From the IMG/VR virus record IMGVR_UViG_3300029705_000018: 64,000 nucleotides of DNA; one strand, written 5' to 3'. Within the stretch, counting starts at the first letter, position 1. Each line of letters opens with the position of its first letter. The notes below the pieces were generated by a model, which did no database searches, was not told where the DNA came from, and saw only the letters and a list, made by a program, of their open reading frames with translations. Source of the DNA: a virus. Taxonomy: Duplodnaviria > Heunggongvirae > Uroviricota > Caudoviricetes. Both the position numbers and the translations under genes were made by a program. Positions 1,033 to 13,605 of the stretch are shown here, one piece after another.

Positions 1033-1108
1033 TGGAGCCAGTAGTCGGACTCGAACCGACAACCTACTGATTACAAGTCAGTTGCGCTGCCAATTACGCT
1101 ATACTGGC
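1033..1108 (-). tRNA. tRNA-Thr (anticodon TGT)
   Basis: Reverse complement folds as a cloverleaf: acceptor GCCAGTA/TACTGGC, T-loop GGTTCGAGTCC, anticodon stem ACTGA/TCAGT with loop CTTGTAA. CCA is encoded. Confidence 0.7.
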
Positions 1109-1949
1109 ATATCAAGGCTCGCTTTTCTGATAAACGGATTTTAAGTCTGCATCATAAAATTAGTTGCTGTGTGAGCCTTTATTTCTTATGTATATATTAT
1201 ACAAAAAATTTTTTAGAAAATCAACTTTTCAAAGTAAAAAGGATAGAAAAAATCCACATTGAAATCTAACTTGAGCCTACTTTATATGCGCTGACTACAA
1301 CGAGTCGCCATATACTACCGACCTGCTTCTAATTTACCATCGGCTCTTATCATCATTCAATATGGATTTTCCACTTGTATTCACCTTTTGCTTTTCGTTG
1401 CCTGACCATGGAATTGGGGTCCATGTGCTATGTCAGTTCCTACAAGATTTCTAATATCATTATACATTAAGGCAGTTGGCAAATCTGCAATCAATTATCG
1501 CTACCCAATATCATCTATCCATTTCGCGATAGAGGCGCTCAGATTTATTTATTCGTCTGGGGAAGCGCAACTTAGCGGAGATTACTTTATCTTACAGACC
1601 GTAGACTATAAGTAAAGGTCTCACTTTCTTTTTAACACTAAACTGCTCTTTGACTTTTTAGCGAAAAAATCAAACTATGTGCTTGAGGTAAAAGTCAAAA
1701 GAAAACCTACCATATTAACGCATATGGGGCGTCGAACTAAATATCTGATACGTATCAGCACGGGTCGGGATATATCGTTTCACCACAGTCACCAGGCGGA
1801 GTGAAACCTTATTTAGTTCAAATACCACCGAGAACCTTCAGCCATAGGAGCAGTTCTCACGTTTTACCCTACGAGGACTTTGGGAATGAAAGGATGCCCC
1901 GCCTATATTCGCAGCGAATGGTATTCATTTTTTAGAGGTTTGAACCTCT

Positions 1950-2039
1950 TGGTGGGCCAGGAGAGAATTGAACTCACTCGACCGTGTTAACGGACCGGTT
2001 TTACAGACCGGGGCGCCTGCCTTAACGCTTTACTGACCC
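1950..2039 (-). tRNA. tRNA-Tyr (anticodon GTA), long variable arm
   Basis: Reverse complement GGGTCAG...CCGGT-CTGTAAA-ACCGG...long variable arm...CTGGCCCACCA, 90 nt. Confidence 0.65.
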
Positions 2040-2085
2040 ATATCTTTAATTATAAAGACACCTGATATTGATAAGTTTGAAAACC

Positions 2086-2457
2086 CTATCCATTTGCAGA
2101 TTTTTGAGTGCGGAGAGTAATTTGTTTATTACAGCCATATTCTTTCATATCTGCTACTGGAATGACATACATATTCATATTTCCATCTAAACAGAATAAA
2201 TAATCAACTGGATGATTAAGAACATTATCATACGTACCGCCCTTGGTTCCGCCAGTACTTCTCAAAGAAATAGTATTATCAGAACTTCCAGTTGCTTTAC
2301 ATTGGACTGTCTTAAATTCACCATCTTTTTCAATGACTAAATCATACCATTGAGTATCATTTAGAGGAACATTCACAGTGTATCCATTGGCTCCAAAATA
2401 GGCAATTGCCATTGCCATACCTGCGCGACCTTTGTCACGATTTGTTTCAAATAACAT
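2086..2457 (-). CDS. hypothetical protein
   Basis: ORF of 123 aa on the same strand as its neighbours. It lies at the 3' end of the long ORF-free leader transcribed from the conserved promoter at ~3745-3790. Confidence 0.45.
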   Translation of the reverse strand: MLFETNRDKGRAGMAMAIAYFGANGYTVNVPLNDTQWYDLVIEKDGEFKTVQCKATGSSDNTISLRSTGGTKGGTYDNVLNHPVDYLFCLDGNMNMYVIPVADMKEYGCNKQITLRTQKSANG

Positions 2458-2459
2458 AG

Positions 2460-3745
2460 TAAAATCTCCTTTTCTTTTAGCTTCTACTATATTTCAAAAC
2501 TAAATCATATAAATTATCTAACGCCGGCCACGGTGTCTGCCGAAATATAAATGCCTTGTTCAGTATATGTCTGACCTCAACTTGAACGACCTACCGGTGT
2601 AGACTTGTCCCGGGTAAAATCTACATCGCTCAGACACTTCCCGACGCATTGTGAAAACAGTCGCTGTGCAGGCACGAGCAACCTGGAGGCTCAACACGTC
2701 ACGCGAGGACTTTCGCTTTAGCCTTGTTCAATCTCCTTGGGCATGGAGGGTGGTGGAGCGAGAAAAATAATGAACTCGCTGATTGTCGCCTTTACGGGGG
2801 CTAGGCGACATTTCTTTCGCCCCTGGTGGGAAACCTTGGACTCAAACCAAGAAGTCTTTTCAGACGCCGGATTTACAGTAATCATAGAAACATATTGCGG
2901 ATAAGGTCTTTGCCAACACCTTTTTCAAATGAAAAGCCTTTCGGCTCCGGTGCGTTTATCAATTCCGCCAGTTTCCCAAATTTATAAACCTGATAAGTTT
3001 GCTGACCTTCGTCATACTCCCTATAACCTTCAACCATATTCAATCACCGGGGAGACAAGTCTGAGCCTTCGGGAGCGACCCTAAGCTTCTTGCCCCAGTA
3101 GTTCTGACACACCAGAGGCGGCCTTTCCTACCCTATCCCGCAGAGGACTGATTGCCTCTAACTTTCACTCGCCATTCAGAATTGTTTAAGTCTATTAAAC
3201 CATACTATCTAAACAGCCCAATCTTTCTTCTCGTCGTTGCGATAGAGCTACTCGTACCCTGACCTTACCTTATAGCCGGATTACTCCGACATCAACGCAG
3301 ACTTCCTTATTGGTGTACCTTGGTCTGGAACAGTCACCAGCTAATCCCTAACAAGGCTTATTCCCCACGGGGGCGTCTATTGCGGAAGCGATAAGACGGT
3401 ATTTTTGATTGCGGTTATCTTTGCACTCCTCTCCATCCAGGCCCTCCCTTTGGAGGCGGCTCTCTTATGTCACCACAAGAGAATCTACCTATTACCGGCT
3501 ATCGTCGGTAAGATTGCTTTTCGGACTCCTGGTACCCACAGGCAGGATGAGGATCTCGGCACGATGGTATTCGTTCTTCACCGAGTTGCAAACTTATCAA
3601 GGTTCATGACAGTCATTAGTCGAAATCGCACTCACCAGGGTTATTCACCGGAGGGTTTCTGTCAGGAGTGCTTCAAGGCTCACTTTTTTCTCATACAGTT
3701 GGAGCGAGTTGCAGTCGCAAATTTTATGAATAAGAATTGCTGTTT
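2460..3745 (-). ncRNA. candidate large structured ncRNA (ORF-free, GC-rich; could instead be a long leader for the gene at 2086..2457)
   Basis: About 1.25 kb with no credible ORF in any frame. It is markedly more GC-rich than the surrounding AT-rich phage DNA. On the minus strand it lies directly downstream of a copy of the conserved early promoter (rev-comp TTGACTTTTCAAAAAAAATTTGTTATAAT at ~3745-3790). It has many GNRA-type hairpins (e.g. GAGCCGAAAGGCTT, GGGGCGAAAGAAATGTCGCC...CCCC). An embedded tRNA-like 3' element ends CTTGG-TTTGAGT-CCAAG-GTTTCCC-A-CCA at ~2812-2970. Confidence 0.45.
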
Positions 3746-3790
3746 GAGCCTTATATTTATATTATAACAAATTTTTTTTGAAAAGTCAAA
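3745..3790 (-). promoter_or_regulatory. conserved early promoter element (one of >=17 copies)
   Basis: On the minus strand reads TTGACTTTTCAAAAAAAATTTGTTATAATATAAATATAAGG. It matches the family TTGATTTT(T/C)A(T/A)AAAAAATATGTTATAATAT(A/T)TATGTAAG(A/G)TAAAG. Confidence 0.6.
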
Positions 3791-4093
3791 TTTTTGGTGA
3801 AGGGTCATTATTCCCGTTGCCCCTTCGGCCGGTCGCGCAGAACACATTTCGGTTTTTGGCCAGGTTGACCGCAAACCTGCCTCATGTGTTATTACACCAA
3901 AGGTCCGCCGTACGCATCGCACCACTCATTATAGGATGGCTACTTTCAAAGCCCACCTTTGAGGTTTTTCAGAGATTTATACTTGGTTCCCATCCAAGAA
4001 CTCCTACTTTTGGCAACTCATAGGTTCGACACATTTTCGCATTTCTGGGGCAGCGGCCGATTAGGAACGTAACGCCATTATCCACTATGAGTT

Positions 4094-4167
4094 TGGCTCC
4101 CGCTGATGGACTCGAACCACCAAATGCAGAGTCAGAGTCTGCCGTTTTGCCATTAGACTAAGCGGGA
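4094..4167 (-). tRNA. tRNA-Gln (anticodon CTG)
   Basis: Reverse complement TCCCGCT TA GTCTAATGGCAAAAC GGCAGA-CTCTGAC-TCTGC ... GGTTCGAGTCC ... AGCGGGA G CCA. Discriminator is G73 as in Gln tRNAs. Confidence 0.7.
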
Positions 4168-12456: not shown

Positions 12457-12532
12457 TGGCGAACGGTGAGGGACTTGAACCCCCGACAGGTAGGTTAACA
12501 GCCTACTGCTCTACCGACTGAGCTAACCGTCC
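12457..12532 (-). tRNA. tRNA-Asn (anticodon GTT)
   Basis: Reverse complement GGACGGT TA GCTCAGTCGGTAGAGC A GTAGG-CTGTTAA-CCTAC C TGTC GGGGGTTCAAGTCCCTC ACCGTTC G CCA. Confidence 0.7.
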
Positions 12533-12785
12533 ATATGTGTTGTAAGGTGAGAACATGACAGTGAGTCGATATACTATCAGCTATTCTTCCCATTCCGTGA
12601 GAGGTTCTCAAAATACATTTTTCTGCCGATGTTCCTCGCCCCAGGACTTCGCTGATAGACGGCCTGGGCACTTCACAAAGGGATACTCTTTGTATTTCCT
12701 TTACCTTACATATATATTATAACATATTTTTTTTTGAAAATCAAATATGTTATATTTACTTAGCTTCAAGACGGAGTTTTTTCGA

Positions 12786-12816
12786 TCTTACGCTGCTCTA
12801 CCAATCTAAGCTACAC
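12786..12816 (-). other. 5' tRNA fragment (acceptor plus D-arm only; His/Gly-like GGGTGTAGCTTAGATTGGTAGAGC)
   Basis: Matches the first ~25 nt of the tRNAs at 6518..6595 and 6754..6829, but no anticodon arm or T-arm follows. Probably a truncated duplicate. Confidence 0.3.
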
Positions 12817-12874
12817 CCTTCATATCAGGGAACCGAAGTTCCCCTTAGTAGTCACCTACGCCACCTTGCCAGGT

Positions 12875-12915
12875 GAGGGAAGGGTGGTTGGACTCGAACC
12901 AACGACCTGCGGCAC
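12875..12915 (-). other. tRNA 3'-half-like fragment (GTTGG-TTCGAGT-CCAAC plus CACCCTT tail)
   Basis: Canonical T-arm on the minus strand with no complementary 5' acceptor. Confidence 0.25.
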
Positions 12916-13061
12916 CACAAGCTAATCTTTGAATCGCTGTTACCGTCTTTTATGGAAAAGGTTGTGTATGGAGAAAGAAAGTGAACCGTGCATTTCGCTT
13001 TCTTTACCTTACATATATATTATAACATATTTTTTTTTGAAAGTCAAAAAGAATTTTTGAC

Positions 13062-13433
13062 TTAGATTTCAGAGGCTCTTGCCTGAGTCTCTTCCTCTTC
13101 TTCCAAAATAAAGGAATGCTGCTCATATTCCTTAGATTCCAGGAAACTCTCTTCTACGATGCGTTCATTAGCGCCCTCGCCAGTAGTGACCAAACCCTTG
13201 GGGAACTCACCACCGAAGATTTCTTCGGAGAGATCAACCCAGGTGCCATAGGGATAGATAGCCTGGTCCACGTAACCCTCGGACAGCTCGCAGACCTCGT
13301 CGATATCATAAACACCGCCGCAACAGGCGCAGATGATAGTGTCGCCAAAAGCGATACCGGTAATCCAAGAGCCGGGTTCATCAATGTCATGGAACATGAC
13401 CTGAGTAGGAGTATCAAAATGAGGCTTGTTCAT
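13062..13433 (-). CDS. hypothetical acidic protein
   Basis: ORF of 123 aa. Conserved promoter copy at 13455-13515. Confidence 0.5.
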   Translation of the reverse strand: MNKPHFDTPTQVMFHDIDEPGSWITGIAFGDTIICACCGGVYDIDEVCELSEGYVDQAIYPYGTWVDLSEEIFGGEFPKGLVTTGEGANERIVEESFLESKEYEQHSFILEEEEETQARASEI

Positions 13434-13530
13434 AGTATCATTTCCTTTCTCAATCGTCTTTCTTTATCTTACATAAATATTATAACATATTTTTTTATAA
13501 AAATCAAGAAAGATTTTTTATCTAATTTTG

Positions 13531-13605
13531 TGGCAGGGCGACTAGGATTCGAACCTAGATACACAGTTTTGGAGACTGTAGTCCTAGCCGTTGAACGATC
13601 ACCCT
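13531..13605 (-). tRNA. tRNA-Trp (anticodon CCA)
   Basis: Reverse complement AGGGTGA TC GTTCAACGGCTAGGAC T ACAGT-CTCCAAA-ACTGT G TATC TAGGTTCGAATCCTA GTCGCCCT G CCA. Close to a canonical bacterial tRNA-Trp, with G73. Confidence 0.7.

What the first reader, a model, noticed from the sequence alone, without database searches (positions are those of the whole stretch)
1033..13605. A 30-tRNA array encodes two tRNA-Gln but no decodable CUA (amber-suppressor) tRNA
TAG is used as a sense codon, probably Gln, so a phage suppressor tRNA with anticodon CUA would be expected. The 30 tRNAs decoded by hand cover Thr, Tyr, Gln x2 (CTG and TTG, adjacent at 4094-4346), Pro x2, Ile x2, Gly x2, Arg x2, His, Val, Ser x2, Phe, three CAT tRNAs, Asp x2, Glu x2, Leu x2, Ala, Asn, Trp and one AGT tRNA. 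None has CUA at positions 34-36. Either the suppressor lies outside this window, or it is one of the non-canonical tRNA-like elements, or the Gln(CTG/TTG) tRNAs near-cognately read UAG. Lys, Cys and several other isoacceptors are also absent.
Basis: seen in the sequence. Interest (0 to 1): 0.65.

Follow-up and report, generated by a model that had tools for sequence, protein, structure and literature searches.

The report
Amber suppressor tRNA just outside window
This phage does read the stop codon TAG as glutamine, and the "missing" suppressor tRNA sits about 1.1 kb beyond the left edge of the window in the same tRNA array, so this is an ordinary stop-codon-recoded phage.

Summary
Rfam adds two degenerate tRNA-like genes and finds no tRNA in 14-64 kb.

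TAG is a sense codon. The late genes (sigma-like factor, terminase, portal, tail genes), a C1 peptidase and a GT2 glycosyltransferase match full-length families only when TAG is read through. Aligned codons in relatives and solved papain-family structures indicate glutamine.

The array is cut by the window edge. Three metagenome contigs from other samples are 99.99-100% identical to the window's left end, and two of them carry the array on. Ser(UGA) comes first. A canonical tRNA(CUA) follows, 1,074-1,148 nt beyond position 1, and scores 51.5 bits in Rfam. It has U1•U72, G73 and an encoded CCA, and sits behind a TTGACT-17-TATAAT promoter. Then come Leu(UAA), Gly, Lys x2, Met and Cys.

The other two (non-canonical elements, near-cognate Gln tRNAs) are not needed. 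The "degenerate elements" are Y-RNA-like (YrlA-type) tRNA mimics with no anticodon arm. This is a known kind of system, a code-15 phage with its own suppressor.

The parts
1033..13605 (-). The part of the phage tRNA array that lies in the window. It holds 31 ARAGORN tRNAs and none has a CUA anticodon.
   Evidence: ARAGORN. Rfam RF00005 hits at or above the gathering score for 28 of the 31. Tyr is hit only by the clan relative tRNA-Sec below threshold, and Ala-GGC is called by ARAGORN alone.
1..3312 (.). Anchor stretch, 100% identical to IMG/VR contig IMGVR_UViG_3300018430_000680 (L001/L011). Window 1-10459 is 99.99% identical to JGI contig Ga0216347_10005213 (L002). On these contigs the array continues beyond window position 1. 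The order is Ser(UGA), Sup(CUA) at L002 11533-11607 (1,074-1,148 nt left of window position 1, on the window's minus strand), Leu(UAA), Gly(UCC), Lys(UUU), Lys(CUU), Met(CAU), Cys(GCA).
   Evidence: Rfam tRNA score for the suppressor is 51.5 bits; cloverleaf.
4094..4167 (-). tRNA-Gln(CUG) with U1:A72, G73 and encoded CCA.
4271..4346 (-). tRNA-Gln(UUG) with U1:A72, G2:C71, G3:C70, G73 and encoded CCA.
13531..13605 (-). tRNA-Trp(CCA). It is one of the two array members most similar to the suppressor (71% identity). The D arms are alike, and the anticodon loops CUCCAAA and CUCUAAA differ at one base.
4352..4463 (-). It is a YrlA-like tRNA mimic (T arm, acceptor-like hairpin, D arm, no anticodon arm) that forms the leader directly upstream of tRNA-Gln(UUG). 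Not a suppressor.
   Evidence: Rfam YrlA 31.7 bits, below the gathering score of 69. Sequence read. Leader motif AAGGCACATACAGCAA.
12763..12931 (-). Second YrlA-like tRNA mimic.
   Evidence: Rfam YrlA 43.7 bits, E 7.7e-9 in a local search, below the gathering score. The alignment shows T arm, acceptor-like hairpin and D arm.
11868..11937 (-). tRNA-like gene with an 8-nt anticodon loop ('guaa'), a G1•A72 mismatch and no encoded CCA.
   Evidence: Rfam tRNA 40.8 bits. Relaxed ARAGORN structure.
11953..12021 (-). tRNA-like gene with a 6-nt anticodon loop and no encoded CCA.
   Evidence: Rfam tRNA 38.6 bits. Relaxed ARAGORN structure.
225..1013 (-). Papain-family (C1) peptidase gene with an in-frame TAG at codon 42. 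That codon aligns with the family's conserved Gln in ...NQG.CGSC....
   Evidence: Pfam PF00112, E 4.9e-16, spanning the TAG. PDB alignments to 3ois and cathepsin K place Q at the TAG.
7781..8803 (-). GT2 glycosyltransferase gene inside the array, with an in-frame TAG at codon 29 of the 340-aa form.
   Evidence: With read-through, Pfam PF00535 covers profile positions 1-155 at 63.7 bits. The standard ORF covers only 45-155 at 34.9 bits.
49166..50218 (+). Sigma-factor-like late regulator gene with an in-frame TAG at codon 114.
   Evidence: phrog_5767 'sigma factor', E 1.7e-51, covering residues 32-345. 67 of 80 relatives carry at least one TAG in this gene.
51462..53201 (+). Large terminase gene with in-frame TAG at codons 78, 417 and 497.
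   Evidence: phrog_2 covering residues 59-439. At codon 417, standard-code relatives have CAA or CAG in 11 of 11 cases.
53584..55182 (+). Portal gene with in-frame TAG at codons 313 and 504.
   Evidence: phrog_2739, E 2.1e-83, covering residues 58-530.
60278..62669 (+). Three tail-module genes (60278-61324, 61351-61941, 61944-62669) with 3, 3 and 6 in-frame TAGs. The relatives' orthologues of the last two are called YomW and YomV (SPbeta-type families).
   Evidence: Codon comparison.
13969..48620 (-). Block of minus-strand, presumably early genes. Complete standard-code ORFs tile it, and TAG is almost never the terminator.
   Evidence: 62 ORFs of at least 80 aa end in TAA 36, TGA 24, TAG 2, and one of the TAG cases is nested in a larger ORF. 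Repeated TTGACA-type promoter motif.

Best explanation
The window is a 64-kb piece of a large metagenomic tailed phage. Relatives are about 160-210 kb and have SPbeta-type structural genes.

The phage writes part of its late genes in genetic code 15, where TAG means Gln. It carries its own amber-suppressor tRNA(CUA) in a minus-strand array of about 39 canonical tRNA genes, and the window boundary cuts that array. The suppressor gene lies 1,074-1,148 nt beyond window position 1, between tRNA-Ser(UGA) and tRNA-Leu(UAA).

**Shown**
- TAG is sense and means Gln.
- TAG is essentially unused as a terminator.
- A canonical tRNA(CUA) is physically linked to 23 of the window's tRNAs on one contig.
- The tRNA has a homologue with compensatory stem changes in a distant relative.

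**Inferred**
- The suppressor is transcribed by the host polymerase from its own consensus promoter.
- A host enzyme charges it with Gln. U35, G73, G2:C71, G10, A37 and an unpaired 1:72 fit bacterial Gln identity rules.
- It then outcompetes RF1 at UAG. This permits synthesis of the TAG-containing sigma-like factor, terminase, portal and tail proteins.
- Early genes contain no TAG and are readable in either code.
For: **Array and missing CUA in the window**
- Shown: **TAG is sense**
- Plus-strand late genes tile the region only if TAG is read.
- Full-length PHROG and Pfam matches span the TAGs.
- All 14 late genes end in TAA. They hold 18 in-frame TAGs, which is 9.8% of Gln-type codons.

**TAG means Gln**
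- Of 95 non-TAG codons aligned to TAG in six relatives' loci, 59 are CAA or CAG and none is TGG. Log-likelihood is -157 for Gln against -346 for the next best, Glu.
- In 80 IMG/VR relatives, the window codons opposite relatives' TAGs are CAA 787 and CAG 350, far ahead of the next (GAA 132).
- The 11 relatives with no in-frame TAG mostly have CAA or CAG at the window's TAG sites.
- The C1 peptidase TAG aligns with the conserved Gln of the NQG motif in solved structures.

**The suppressor**
- L001 and L011 are 100% identical to window 1-3312.
- L002 is 99.99% identical to window 1-10459, and L003 is 100% identical to 1-10343.
- tRNA(CUA) sits at L001 4386-4460, which equals L002 11533-11607. Rfam scores it 51.5 bits, and the cloverleaf is canonical with encoded CCA.
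- A homologue at L096 1981-2054 keeps all 20 stem pairs. Five pairs are changed on both sides, and 1:72 is again unpaired.
- The best promoter-like site of the region, TTGACT-17-TATAAT, lies 157 nt upstream.

**Wider context**
- 69 of 80 relatives are TAG-recoded in the same genes.
- The system matches the published picture of code-15 phages with suppressor tRNAs and recoding concentrated in late genes (bioRxiv 10.1101/2021.08.26.457843; PMC9523058).
- Gln identity set taken from PMC9976931.
Against: - The suppressor was not seen in the window's own record. It was seen in independent assemblies identical to the window's left end, so a variant genome lacking it cannot be formally excluded.
- Charging with Gln is inferred from codon alignments and identity rules, not measured.
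- C3:G70, A36 and A38 depart from the E. coli Gln identity set. The tRNA body resembles the phage's Trp and CAU tRNAs more than its Gln tRNAs.
- The host is unknown, and so is whether it has GlnRS or uses the GluRS/GatCAB route.
- Only 6 of 80 relatives' array loci showed a CUA tRNA within +/-10 kb, and several of those are long type-II tRNAs. The arrangement is therefore not uniform in the clade.
- Promoter use and timing come only from consensus matches.
Confidence: 0.92

Rival explanations
1. One of the non-canonical tRNA-like elements in the window decodes UAG. Candidates are the YrlA-like elements at 4352-4463 and 12763-12931, or the odd tRNAs at 11868-12021.
For: - These elements exist and have good T arms and acceptor-like stems.
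- The hairpin in the 4352-4463 element has the loop UUCUA, which contains the letters CUA.
Against: - The YrlA-like elements align to the T arm, acceptor-like hairpin and D arm of the YrlA model, and they have no anticodon arm.
- In the 4352-4463 hairpin, CUA cannot occupy positions 34-36 of a 7-nt loop closed by a 5-bp stem (read).
- The odd tRNAs have 8-nt and 6-nt loops ('guaa', 'ga'), no CUA and no encoded CCA.
- A canonical tRNA(CUA) exists 1.1 kb away.
Confidence: 0.02
2. UAG is read mainly by near-cognate pairing of the phage tRNA-Gln(CUG) or tRNA-Gln(UUG), with no dedicated suppressor.
For: - Two Gln tRNAs are encoded in the window.
- Low-level natural read-through of UAG by Gln tRNAs is known in other systems (own knowledge).
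Against: - A cognate CUA tRNA is encoded in the same array and is conserved with compensatory changes.
- Relatives carry up to 17 in-frame TAGs in a single gene. Low-efficiency near-cognate read-through could not support that.
Confidence: 0.03
3. The window comes from a variant genome that differs from contigs L001, L002 and L011 to the left of position 1 and has no suppressor there. The suppressor lies elsewhere in that genome or is supplied by a co-infecting phage.
For: The sequence left of position 1 was not available for the window's own record.
Against: - Three assemblies from different samples are 99.99-100% identical to the window over 3.3-10.5 kb and run seamlessly past position 1.
- Position 1 falls in the middle of a 121-aa ORF that is complete on those contigs.
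Confidence: 0.03
4. TAG is a genuine stop, and the interrupted late genes are pseudogenes, split genes or assembly errors.
For: Under the standard code the pieces are still ORFs of 100-340 aa.
Against: - Family profiles run straight through the TAGs.
- The TAGs alternate with CAA and CAG in relatives.
- 69 of 80 relatives show the same pattern.
- TAG is almost never a terminator in this window.
Confidence: 0.01

Closest known systems
Code-15 (TAG to Gln) alternatively coded gut and rumen phages with phage-encoded suppressor tRNAs (Ivanova et al. 2014, own knowledge; Borges et al., bioRxiv 10.1101/2021.08.26.457843; Peters et al. 2022, PMC9523058)
   Same: - In-frame TAG is concentrated in structural and late genes, while early genes are compatible with the standard code.
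- TAG aligns with Gln.
- A phage tRNA(CUA) is present.
- The genome is large and comes from animal-associated metagenomes.
- Close relatives range from unrecoded to heavily recoded.
   Different: - I saw nothing essentially different.
- I could not assign this phage to one of the named clades (Jade, Sapphire, Agate and so on).
- No release factor or aminoacyl-tRNA synthetase gene was seen in the window or in the 9.8 kb examined beyond it.
- The window phage is at the low end of TAG density for its clade.
E. coli amber suppressors that insert Gln: supE (tRNA-Gln CUA) and su+7 (tRNA-Trp with a CUA anticodon, charged with Gln). Recalled from my own knowledge, not checked here.
   Same: - CUA anticodon with U35 and G73.
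- A weak or absent 1:72 pair.
- The su+7 parallel fits the Trp-like D arm and anticodon loop of this suppressor.
   Different: - The phage tRNA is a separate conserved gene with an obligately unpaired U1•U72 (U1•C72 in the relative), not a point mutant of a resident tRNA.
- Its charging has not been tested.
Large tRNA arrays of big phages
   Same: - Dozens of co-oriented tRNA genes cover all 20 amino acids.
- Small ORFs and structured RNAs are interspersed, here ROOL and DUF3800-XI.
   Different: This array includes a stop-codon suppressor and several YrlA-like tRNA mimics placed as leaders in front of tRNAs.
YrlA / bacterial Y RNA-like RNAs (Rfam RF02553). This applies to the 'degenerate tRNA-like elements' only.
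   Same: The T arm, acceptor-like hairpin and D arm occur in the YrlA order and align over the whole model.
   Different: - Scores of 31.7-43.7 bits are below the family's gathering score of 69.
- The outer stems are not conserved.
- The elements sit as promoter-proximal leaders fused upstream of tRNA genes.

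Membership tests
Code-15 (TAG=Gln) recoded phage | In-frame TAG codons inside conserved genes whose family profiles continue across them | tested here: met
   - C1 peptidase and GT2 in Pfam.
- Sigma-like factor, terminase, portal and phrog_4051 in PHROGs.
Code-15 (TAG=Gln) recoded phage | TAG positions correspond to Gln in homologues | tested here: met
   - 59 of 95 aligned non-TAG codons are CAA or CAG; log-likelihood for Gln is -157 against -346 for Glu.
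- In 80 relatives, including 11 without in-frame TAG, Gln codons dominate.
- The papain-family conserved Gln aligns with the TAG.
- (Q at 89-120 of 120 database homologues) is not independent. Those proteins were themselves translated with TAG=Q.
Code-15 (TAG=Gln) recoded phage | TAG depleted as a terminator | tested here: met
   - Minus-strand ORFs end in TAA 36, TGA 24, TAG 2.
- All 14 late genes end in TAA.
Code-15 (TAG=Gln) recoded phage | Phage-encoded tRNA with anticodon CUA (frequent but not universal; detected in about 40% of TAG-recoded genomes according to bioRxiv 10.1101/2021.08.26.457843) | tested here: met
   - Not in the window.
- Present 1,074-1,148 nt beyond position 1 on contigs 99.99-100% identical to the window.
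Code-15 (TAG=Gln) recoded phage | Gln actually incorporated at TAG in the proteins | not testable with these tools
   This needs proteomics, as was done for crAss-like phages in PMC9523058.
Canonical elongator tRNA (Rfam RF00005), applied to the CUA tRNA | Cloverleaf scoring above the family's gathering score, a 7-nt anticodon loop with U33, and stems supported by covariation | tested here: met
   - 51.5 bits against a gathering score of 29.
- ARAGORN cloverleaf with loop CU-CUA-AA.
- Against the L096 homologue, 100% of 40 cells are paired and 5 pairs are changed on both sides. Slid controls pair at 35-60%. This rests on only two sequences.
Bacterial tRNA-Gln identity set (PMC9976931: G73, U1-A72, G2-C71, G3-C70, G10, U34, U35, G36, A37, U38) | Presence of the identity nucleotides | tested here: inconclusive
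   - Met: G73, G2:C71, G10, U35, A37. U1 is present but faces U72, so it is unpaired.
- Not met: C3:G70 in place of G3:C70; A36, which a CUA anticodon forces; A38.
- Read.
- Charging was not tested.
Bacterial tRNA-Trp identity set (PMC9976931: G73, A1-U72, G2-C71, G3-C70, G4-C69, G5-C68, A9, C34, C35, A36) | Presence of the identity nucleotides | tested here: not met
   - Met: G73, G2:C71, G4:C69, G5:C68, C34, A36.
- Not met: 1:72 is U•U, 3:70 is C:G, position 9 is C, position 35 is U.
- No TGG codon aligns with TAG (0 of 95).
tRNA-Pyl (the label ARAGORN prints for any CUA anticodon) | Pyl-type tRNA architecture and pyl genes | tested here: not met
   - The tRNA has a standard cloverleaf with a 5-bp anticodon stem, an 8-nt D loop and a 4-nt variable loop.
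- TAG aligns with Gln.
- No pyl genes were seen in the window or the extension.
- The Pyl architecture criteria are from my own knowledge.
YrlA (RF02553), applied to the elements at 4352-4463 and 12763-12931 | Score at or above Rfam's gathering score of 69 bits | tested here: not met
   - Scores are 31.7 and 43.7 bits, and 40.8 bits for the copy upstream of the suppressor.
- The tRNA-like core aligns but the outer stems do not.
- They are YrlA-like and not demonstrated family members.

The most novel reading that the evidence does not exclude
The suppressor is not a mutated tRNA-Gln. It is a distinct, conserved tRNA lineage with a Trp-like body and an obligately unpaired 1:72, which diverts a host Gln-charging enzyme.

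The late sigma-like factor gene carries in-frame TAG, here at codon 114 and in 67 of 80 relatives. Accumulation of the suppressor would then act as the timer that licenses late transcription as well as late translation.

The YrlA-like mimic fused upstream of the suppressor, together with the nearby DUF2828 protein, might couple its maturation to an RNA quality-control particle.
Probability: 0.25. Interest if true: 0.45.

Novelty: new member of a known kind. Interest (0 to 1): 0.18.

Why it matters
As posed, the finding suggested a recoded phage that decodes TAG without a cognate suppressor, which would have been unusual. It is instead a window-edge artefact. The phage follows the known code-15 pattern and has its own tRNA(CUA).

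- **Practical lesson.** A missing feature in a fixed window that cuts through an array should be checked against overlapping contigs before it is interpreted.
- **The phage itself.** It belongs to a very abundant clade of about 160-210 kb. Relatives range from no in-frame TAG to 17 TAGs in one gene, which makes the clade a good natural series for studying how recoding spreads.
- **The suppressor.** It has an unpaired 1:72, G73 and a Trp-like body. That makes it a concrete candidate for testing how host enzymes are made to charge Gln onto a CUA tRNA.

Tried and rejected
- **Relaxed ARAGORN (-ps80, -ps60) and intron mode.** These gave many low-score calls. The only CUA call, 22755-22851, lies inside a 393-aa ORF and has no Rfam support, so I rejected it.
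- **Megablast of both ends of the window against cultured phages.** This returned only a 57-nt tRNA match, so no cultured relative is available.
- **Exact search for the window's right end in IMG/VR.** No match.
- **Search for the same tRNA body carrying any anticodon in IMG/VR.** Only the same contig was found, so the ancestry of the suppressor (Trp-like or Gln-like) could not be settled this way.
- **Residue counts in database homologues of the YomV-like protein.** They looked decisive, with Q at all six TAG sites. Those proteins were themselves translated with TAG=Q ('translates_to_query: no'). I replaced this with codon-level comparisons and PDB alignments.
- **TAG-sense ORFs on the plus strand of 32-48 kb.** These are shadows of small minus-strand genes. 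Their recurring 'FVKRFF' peptide is the reverse complement of a repeated promoter motif. They are not evidence for recoding.
- **PDB sequence search with the DUF2828 protein.** No hit, so its suspected relation to Ro60/TROVE (my own recollection) remains untested.
- **C1-peptidase relatives in IMG/VR.** Most lie in other genomic contexts without tRNAs and say nothing about conservation of the suppressor.

Full report
**1. The observation**

ARAGORN finds 31 tRNA genes, all on the minus strand, between 1033 and 13605. The one addition is a second Ala tRNA (GGC, 11159-11237). Only ARAGORN calls it. It has G3:U70 and an encoded CCA, but Rfam gives no hit there even at E<=1.

The two Gln tRNAs, CUG at 4094-4167 and UUG at 4271-4346, both have U1:A72 and G73.

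No tRNA with a CUA anticodon lies in the window:
- Default ARAGORN finds none.
- Rfam at gathering score finds none over all 64 kb.
- Rfam at E<=1 finds none in 1-14.5 kb or 14-64 kb.
- Relaxed ARAGORN produces one 'Pyl(cta)' call at 22755-22851, inside a 393-aa ORF. Rfam does not support it, and I treat it as a false positive.

Rfam adds two tRNA-like genes next to Ala(UGC), at 11868-11937 (40.8 bits) and 11953-12021 (38.6 bits). Their anticodon loops are 8 nt and 6 nt. Neither has an encoded CCA or a CUA anticodon.

**2. Is TAG a sense codon, and for which amino acid?**

From 49 kb onward, the plus-strand genes form an uninterrupted series only if TAG is read through. With read-through the products match full-length families that span the TAG codons:
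- a sigma-like factor, phrog_5767, residues 32-345 of 350, TAG at codon 114
- the large terminase, phrog_2, TAG at codons 78, 417 and 497
- the portal protein, phrog_2739, residues 58-530 of 532, TAG at codons 313 and 504
- a YomV-like protein, phrog_4051, residues 1-240 of 241, six TAGs

Two genes embedded in the tRNA array behave the same way:
- A papain-family peptidase (225-1013) matches Pfam PF00112 at E 4.9e-16.
- A GT2 glycosyltransferase (7781-8803) improves from profile positions 45-155 at 34.9 bits to positions 1-155 at 63.7 bits when the TAG is read.

The 14 late genes hold 18 in-frame TAGs, which is 9.8% of CAA+CAG+TAG, and all 14 end in TAA. The minus-strand block at 13.9-48.7 kb is tiled by complete standard-code ORFs. 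They end in TAA 36 times, TGA 24 times and TAG twice, and one of the two TAG cases is nested in a larger ORF.

Three lines of evidence point to Gln.

- **Database homologues, discounted.** 120 homologues of the YomV-like protein show Q at all six TAG sites. Their genes do not translate to the stored protein under table 11, so they were called with TAG=Q. This count is not independent evidence.
- **Codon-level comparison.** In six relatives' loci (78-90% identity), 95 non-TAG codons align with a TAG in either direction. Of these, 59 are CAA or CAG, 11 Glu, 10 Lys and 0 Trp. A substitution-profile likelihood built from the same alignments gives Gln -157, Glu -346 and Trp -590. In 80 IMG/VR relatives, the window codons opposite relatives' TAGs are CAA 787 and CAG 350, against GAA 132 as the next most common. 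Eleven relatives have no in-frame TAG in these genes. At the window's TAG sites they carry CAA or CAG in 11 of 11 cases (terminase 417), 8 of 11 (terminase 497), 7 of 10 (sigma 114) and 5 of 10 (portal 313).
- **Solved structures.** The peptidase TAG aligns with the Q of the papain-family motif NQG.CGSC in 3ois and cathepsin K.

**3. Where the suppressor is**

The first 40 bases of the window match one IMG/VR contig exactly, IMGVR_UViG_3300018430_000680 (17,287 bp; L001 and L011). That contig is 100% identical to window 1-3312 and continues beyond position 1.

Looking up the exact product of window gene 2086-2457 gave three JGI contigs from other samples:
- L002 (14,933 bp) is 99.99% identical to window 1-10459 and extends 4,474 nt further.
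- L003 is 100% identical to window 1-10343.
- L004 is 100% identical to window 1659-10603.

Window position 1 falls inside a 121-aa ORF that is complete on these contigs.

On them the array continues in the same orientation. The order is Ser(UGA), a tRNA with anticodon CUA, Leu(UAA), Gly(UCC), Lys(UUU), Lys(CUU), Met(CAU), Cys(GCA). The CUA tRNA lies at L001 4386-4460, which equals L002 11533-11607. That is 1,074-1,148 nt left of window position 1, on the window's minus strand.

L002 therefore links 23 of the window's tRNAs and the CUA tRNA on one molecule. The whole array has about 39 canonical tRNAs. They cover all 20 amino acids plus the suppressor, so the missing Lys and Cys were an edge effect too.

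**4. The suppressor tRNA itself**

- Rfam scores it at 51.5 bits against a gathering score of 29.
- The cloverleaf is canonical:
  - six acceptor pairs plus an unpaired U1•U72
  - G73 and an encoded CCA
  - G10
  - a 5-bp anticodon stem with loop C-U-CUA-A-A
  - a T arm GUGAG/CUCAC
- ARAGORN labels it 'Pyl' only because of the anticodon.
- Within the array it is most similar to one CAU tRNA (73%) and to Trp(CCA) (71%). The Trp tRNA has a very similar D arm, and its loop CUCCAAA differs from CUCUAAA at one base. Identity to the two Gln tRNAs is 62-63%.
- Against the bacterial identity sets in PMC9976931:
  - It has G73, G2:C71, G10, U35 and A37 of the Gln set, but C3:G70, A36 and A38.
  - It lacks A1:U72, G3:C70, A9 and C35 of the Trp set.
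- A clear homologue occurs in a distant relative, at L096 1981-2054.
  - All 20 stem pairs are kept.
  - Five pairs are changed on both sides.
  - 1:72 is again unpaired (U•C) and G73 is kept.
  - Slid controls pair at 35-60%.
- From my own knowledge: GlnRS opens the 1:72 pair, and the E. coli tRNA-Trp amber suppressor su+7 is charged with Gln. A Trp-like CUA tRNA with G73 and no 1:72 pair is therefore a plausible Gln acceptor. This is inference.

**5. How it most likely works**

*Shown*
- Late genes contain TAG read as Gln.
- TAG is almost unused as a terminator.
- The presumed early block needs no TAG read-through.
- A cognate tRNA(CUA) is encoded in the array.

*Inferred*
- The best promoter-like site in the extension, TTGACT-17-TATAAT (11 of 12 matches), lies 157 nt upstream of the suppressor. 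It is followed by the leader AAGGCACATACAGCAA. That leader recurs six times in the window against 0.63 expected by chance.
- Host RNA polymerase would thus make the suppressor without phage factors.
- A host enzyme would charge it with Gln, and it would compete with RF1 at UAG.
- The sigma-like factor gene carries TAG here and in 67 of 80 relatives. Late transcription may therefore also depend on the suppressor.
- This matches the published model for alternatively coded phages (bioRxiv 10.1101/2021.08.26.457843).
- I saw no release-factor or synthetase gene in the window or in the 9.8 kb examined beyond it.

**6. The 'degenerate tRNA-like elements'**

The matched parts are the T arm, an acceptor-like hairpin and the D arm. 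The scores are 31.7, 43.7 and 40.8 bits, below the gathering score of 69. The elements have no anticodon arm and cannot decode anything.

In the 4352-4463 element, the hairpin ACACA-UUCUA-UGUGU contains the letters CUA. They cannot sit at positions 34-36 of a standard loop (read).

**7. Comparison, novelty and verdict**

This is a member of a known kind: a TAG-to-Gln recoded phage with its own suppressor tRNA. No cultured phage is similar at the DNA level. The clade is nonetheless very abundant in metagenomes:
- The YomV-like protein has 4,968 homologues, on contigs up to about 209 kb.
- 69 of 80 IMG/VR relatives are recoded.

The apparent paradox of the finding is an artefact of where the window was cut. 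Interest is therefore low. The modestly interesting residue is the suppressor's unusual identity features, the TAG in the sigma-like factor gene, and the side observations listed separately.

Noticed in passing
window 2984-3609 (-) and 10489-10524 (-): A full-length ROOL RNA (RF03087, 323 bits against a gathering score of 99) and a DUF3800-XI RNA motif (47.6 bits) lie inside the tRNA array.
   Followed up: no
window 12763-12931 (-), 4352-4463 (-); L001 4265-4372 (+); L011 10919-12430 (+): - At least three YrlA-like tRNA mimics sit in or next to the array.
- The two read in full (window 4352-4463, L001 4265-4372) start just after a promoter with the leader AAGGCACATACAGCAA.
- Their acceptor-like hairpin carries N-CCA in its loop, which resembles a permuted tRNA.
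- Those two lie immediately upstream of the tRNAs that read Gln-type codons, Gln(UUG) and the suppressor.
- A 503-aa DUF2828+DUF7788 protein is encoded 7.6-9.1 kb beyond the window start. I recall DUF2828 as related to Ro60/TROVE, but a PDB sequence search found nothing.
   Followed up: partly
window 11868-11937 and 11953-12021 (-): Two adjacent tRNA-like genes have good acceptor, D and T arms but 8-nt ('guaa') and 6-nt anticodon loops and no encoded CCA. A relative's array (L013 6794-6951) also has an adjacent pair of odd-loop tRNA calls. They could be decoys, pseudogenes or frameshift-type tRNAs; this is unresolved.
   Followed up: partly
window 34261-46484 (-): Seventeen copies of a motif like AAAACCTCTTGACAAA lie on the minus strand here. 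The whole window has 19 matches against 1.3 expected by chance. They look like repeated TTGACA-type promoters in front of small minus-strand genes. On the plus strand they create a recurring 'FVKRFF' peptide in spurious TAG-sense ORFs.
   Followed up: partly
window 1164-1179, 3737-3752, 4448-4463, 5125-5140, 5763-5778, 9278-9293 (-): The conserved leader motif AAGGCACATACAGCAA (up to 3 mismatches) occurs six times against 0.63 expected. Each copy lies upstream of a tRNA, the ROOL RNA or a small ORF. It probably marks the starts of transcription units within the array.
   Followed up: no
L063 16241-16331, L093 7028-7119, L096 1890-1980, L098 7677-7763: Relatives' tRNA arrays contain long (87-92 nt) CUA tRNAs with a type-II long variable arm. 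In L096 one stands right next to the short Gln-like suppressor. Which amino acid these insert is unknown.
   Followed up: no
L100-L179 (80 IMG/VR relatives of window 49-57 kb): Recoding density varies widely in the clade. Eleven relatives have no in-frame TAG in the sigma, terminase and portal region, while others have up to 14 TAGs in the terminase and 17 in the portal. The window phage has 1, 3 and 2.
   Followed up: partly
window 51462-53201 (+): PHROG families 15503 and 24618 ('unknown function') match only the N-terminal (residues 11-210) and C-terminal (354-579) parts of this terminase. They look like families built from TAG-truncated ORFs of recoded phages.
   Followed up: no
window 47841-48620 (-), 33614-34228 (-); L011 8407-10796 (+): Auxiliary genes are present. 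In the window there is a FolD-type methylene-THF dehydrogenase/cyclohydrolase (Pfam E 2.4e-39) and an HD-domain protein. Just beyond the array there is an EcoRI-type adenine methylase and a GmrSD_N+HNH protein.
   Followed up: no
window 26471-26517 and L001 6007-6053: A 47-nt stretch, an A/T-rich promoter-like sequence ending in ...GATATAAT..., is 100% identical between the early region of the window and the array extension.
   Followed up: no
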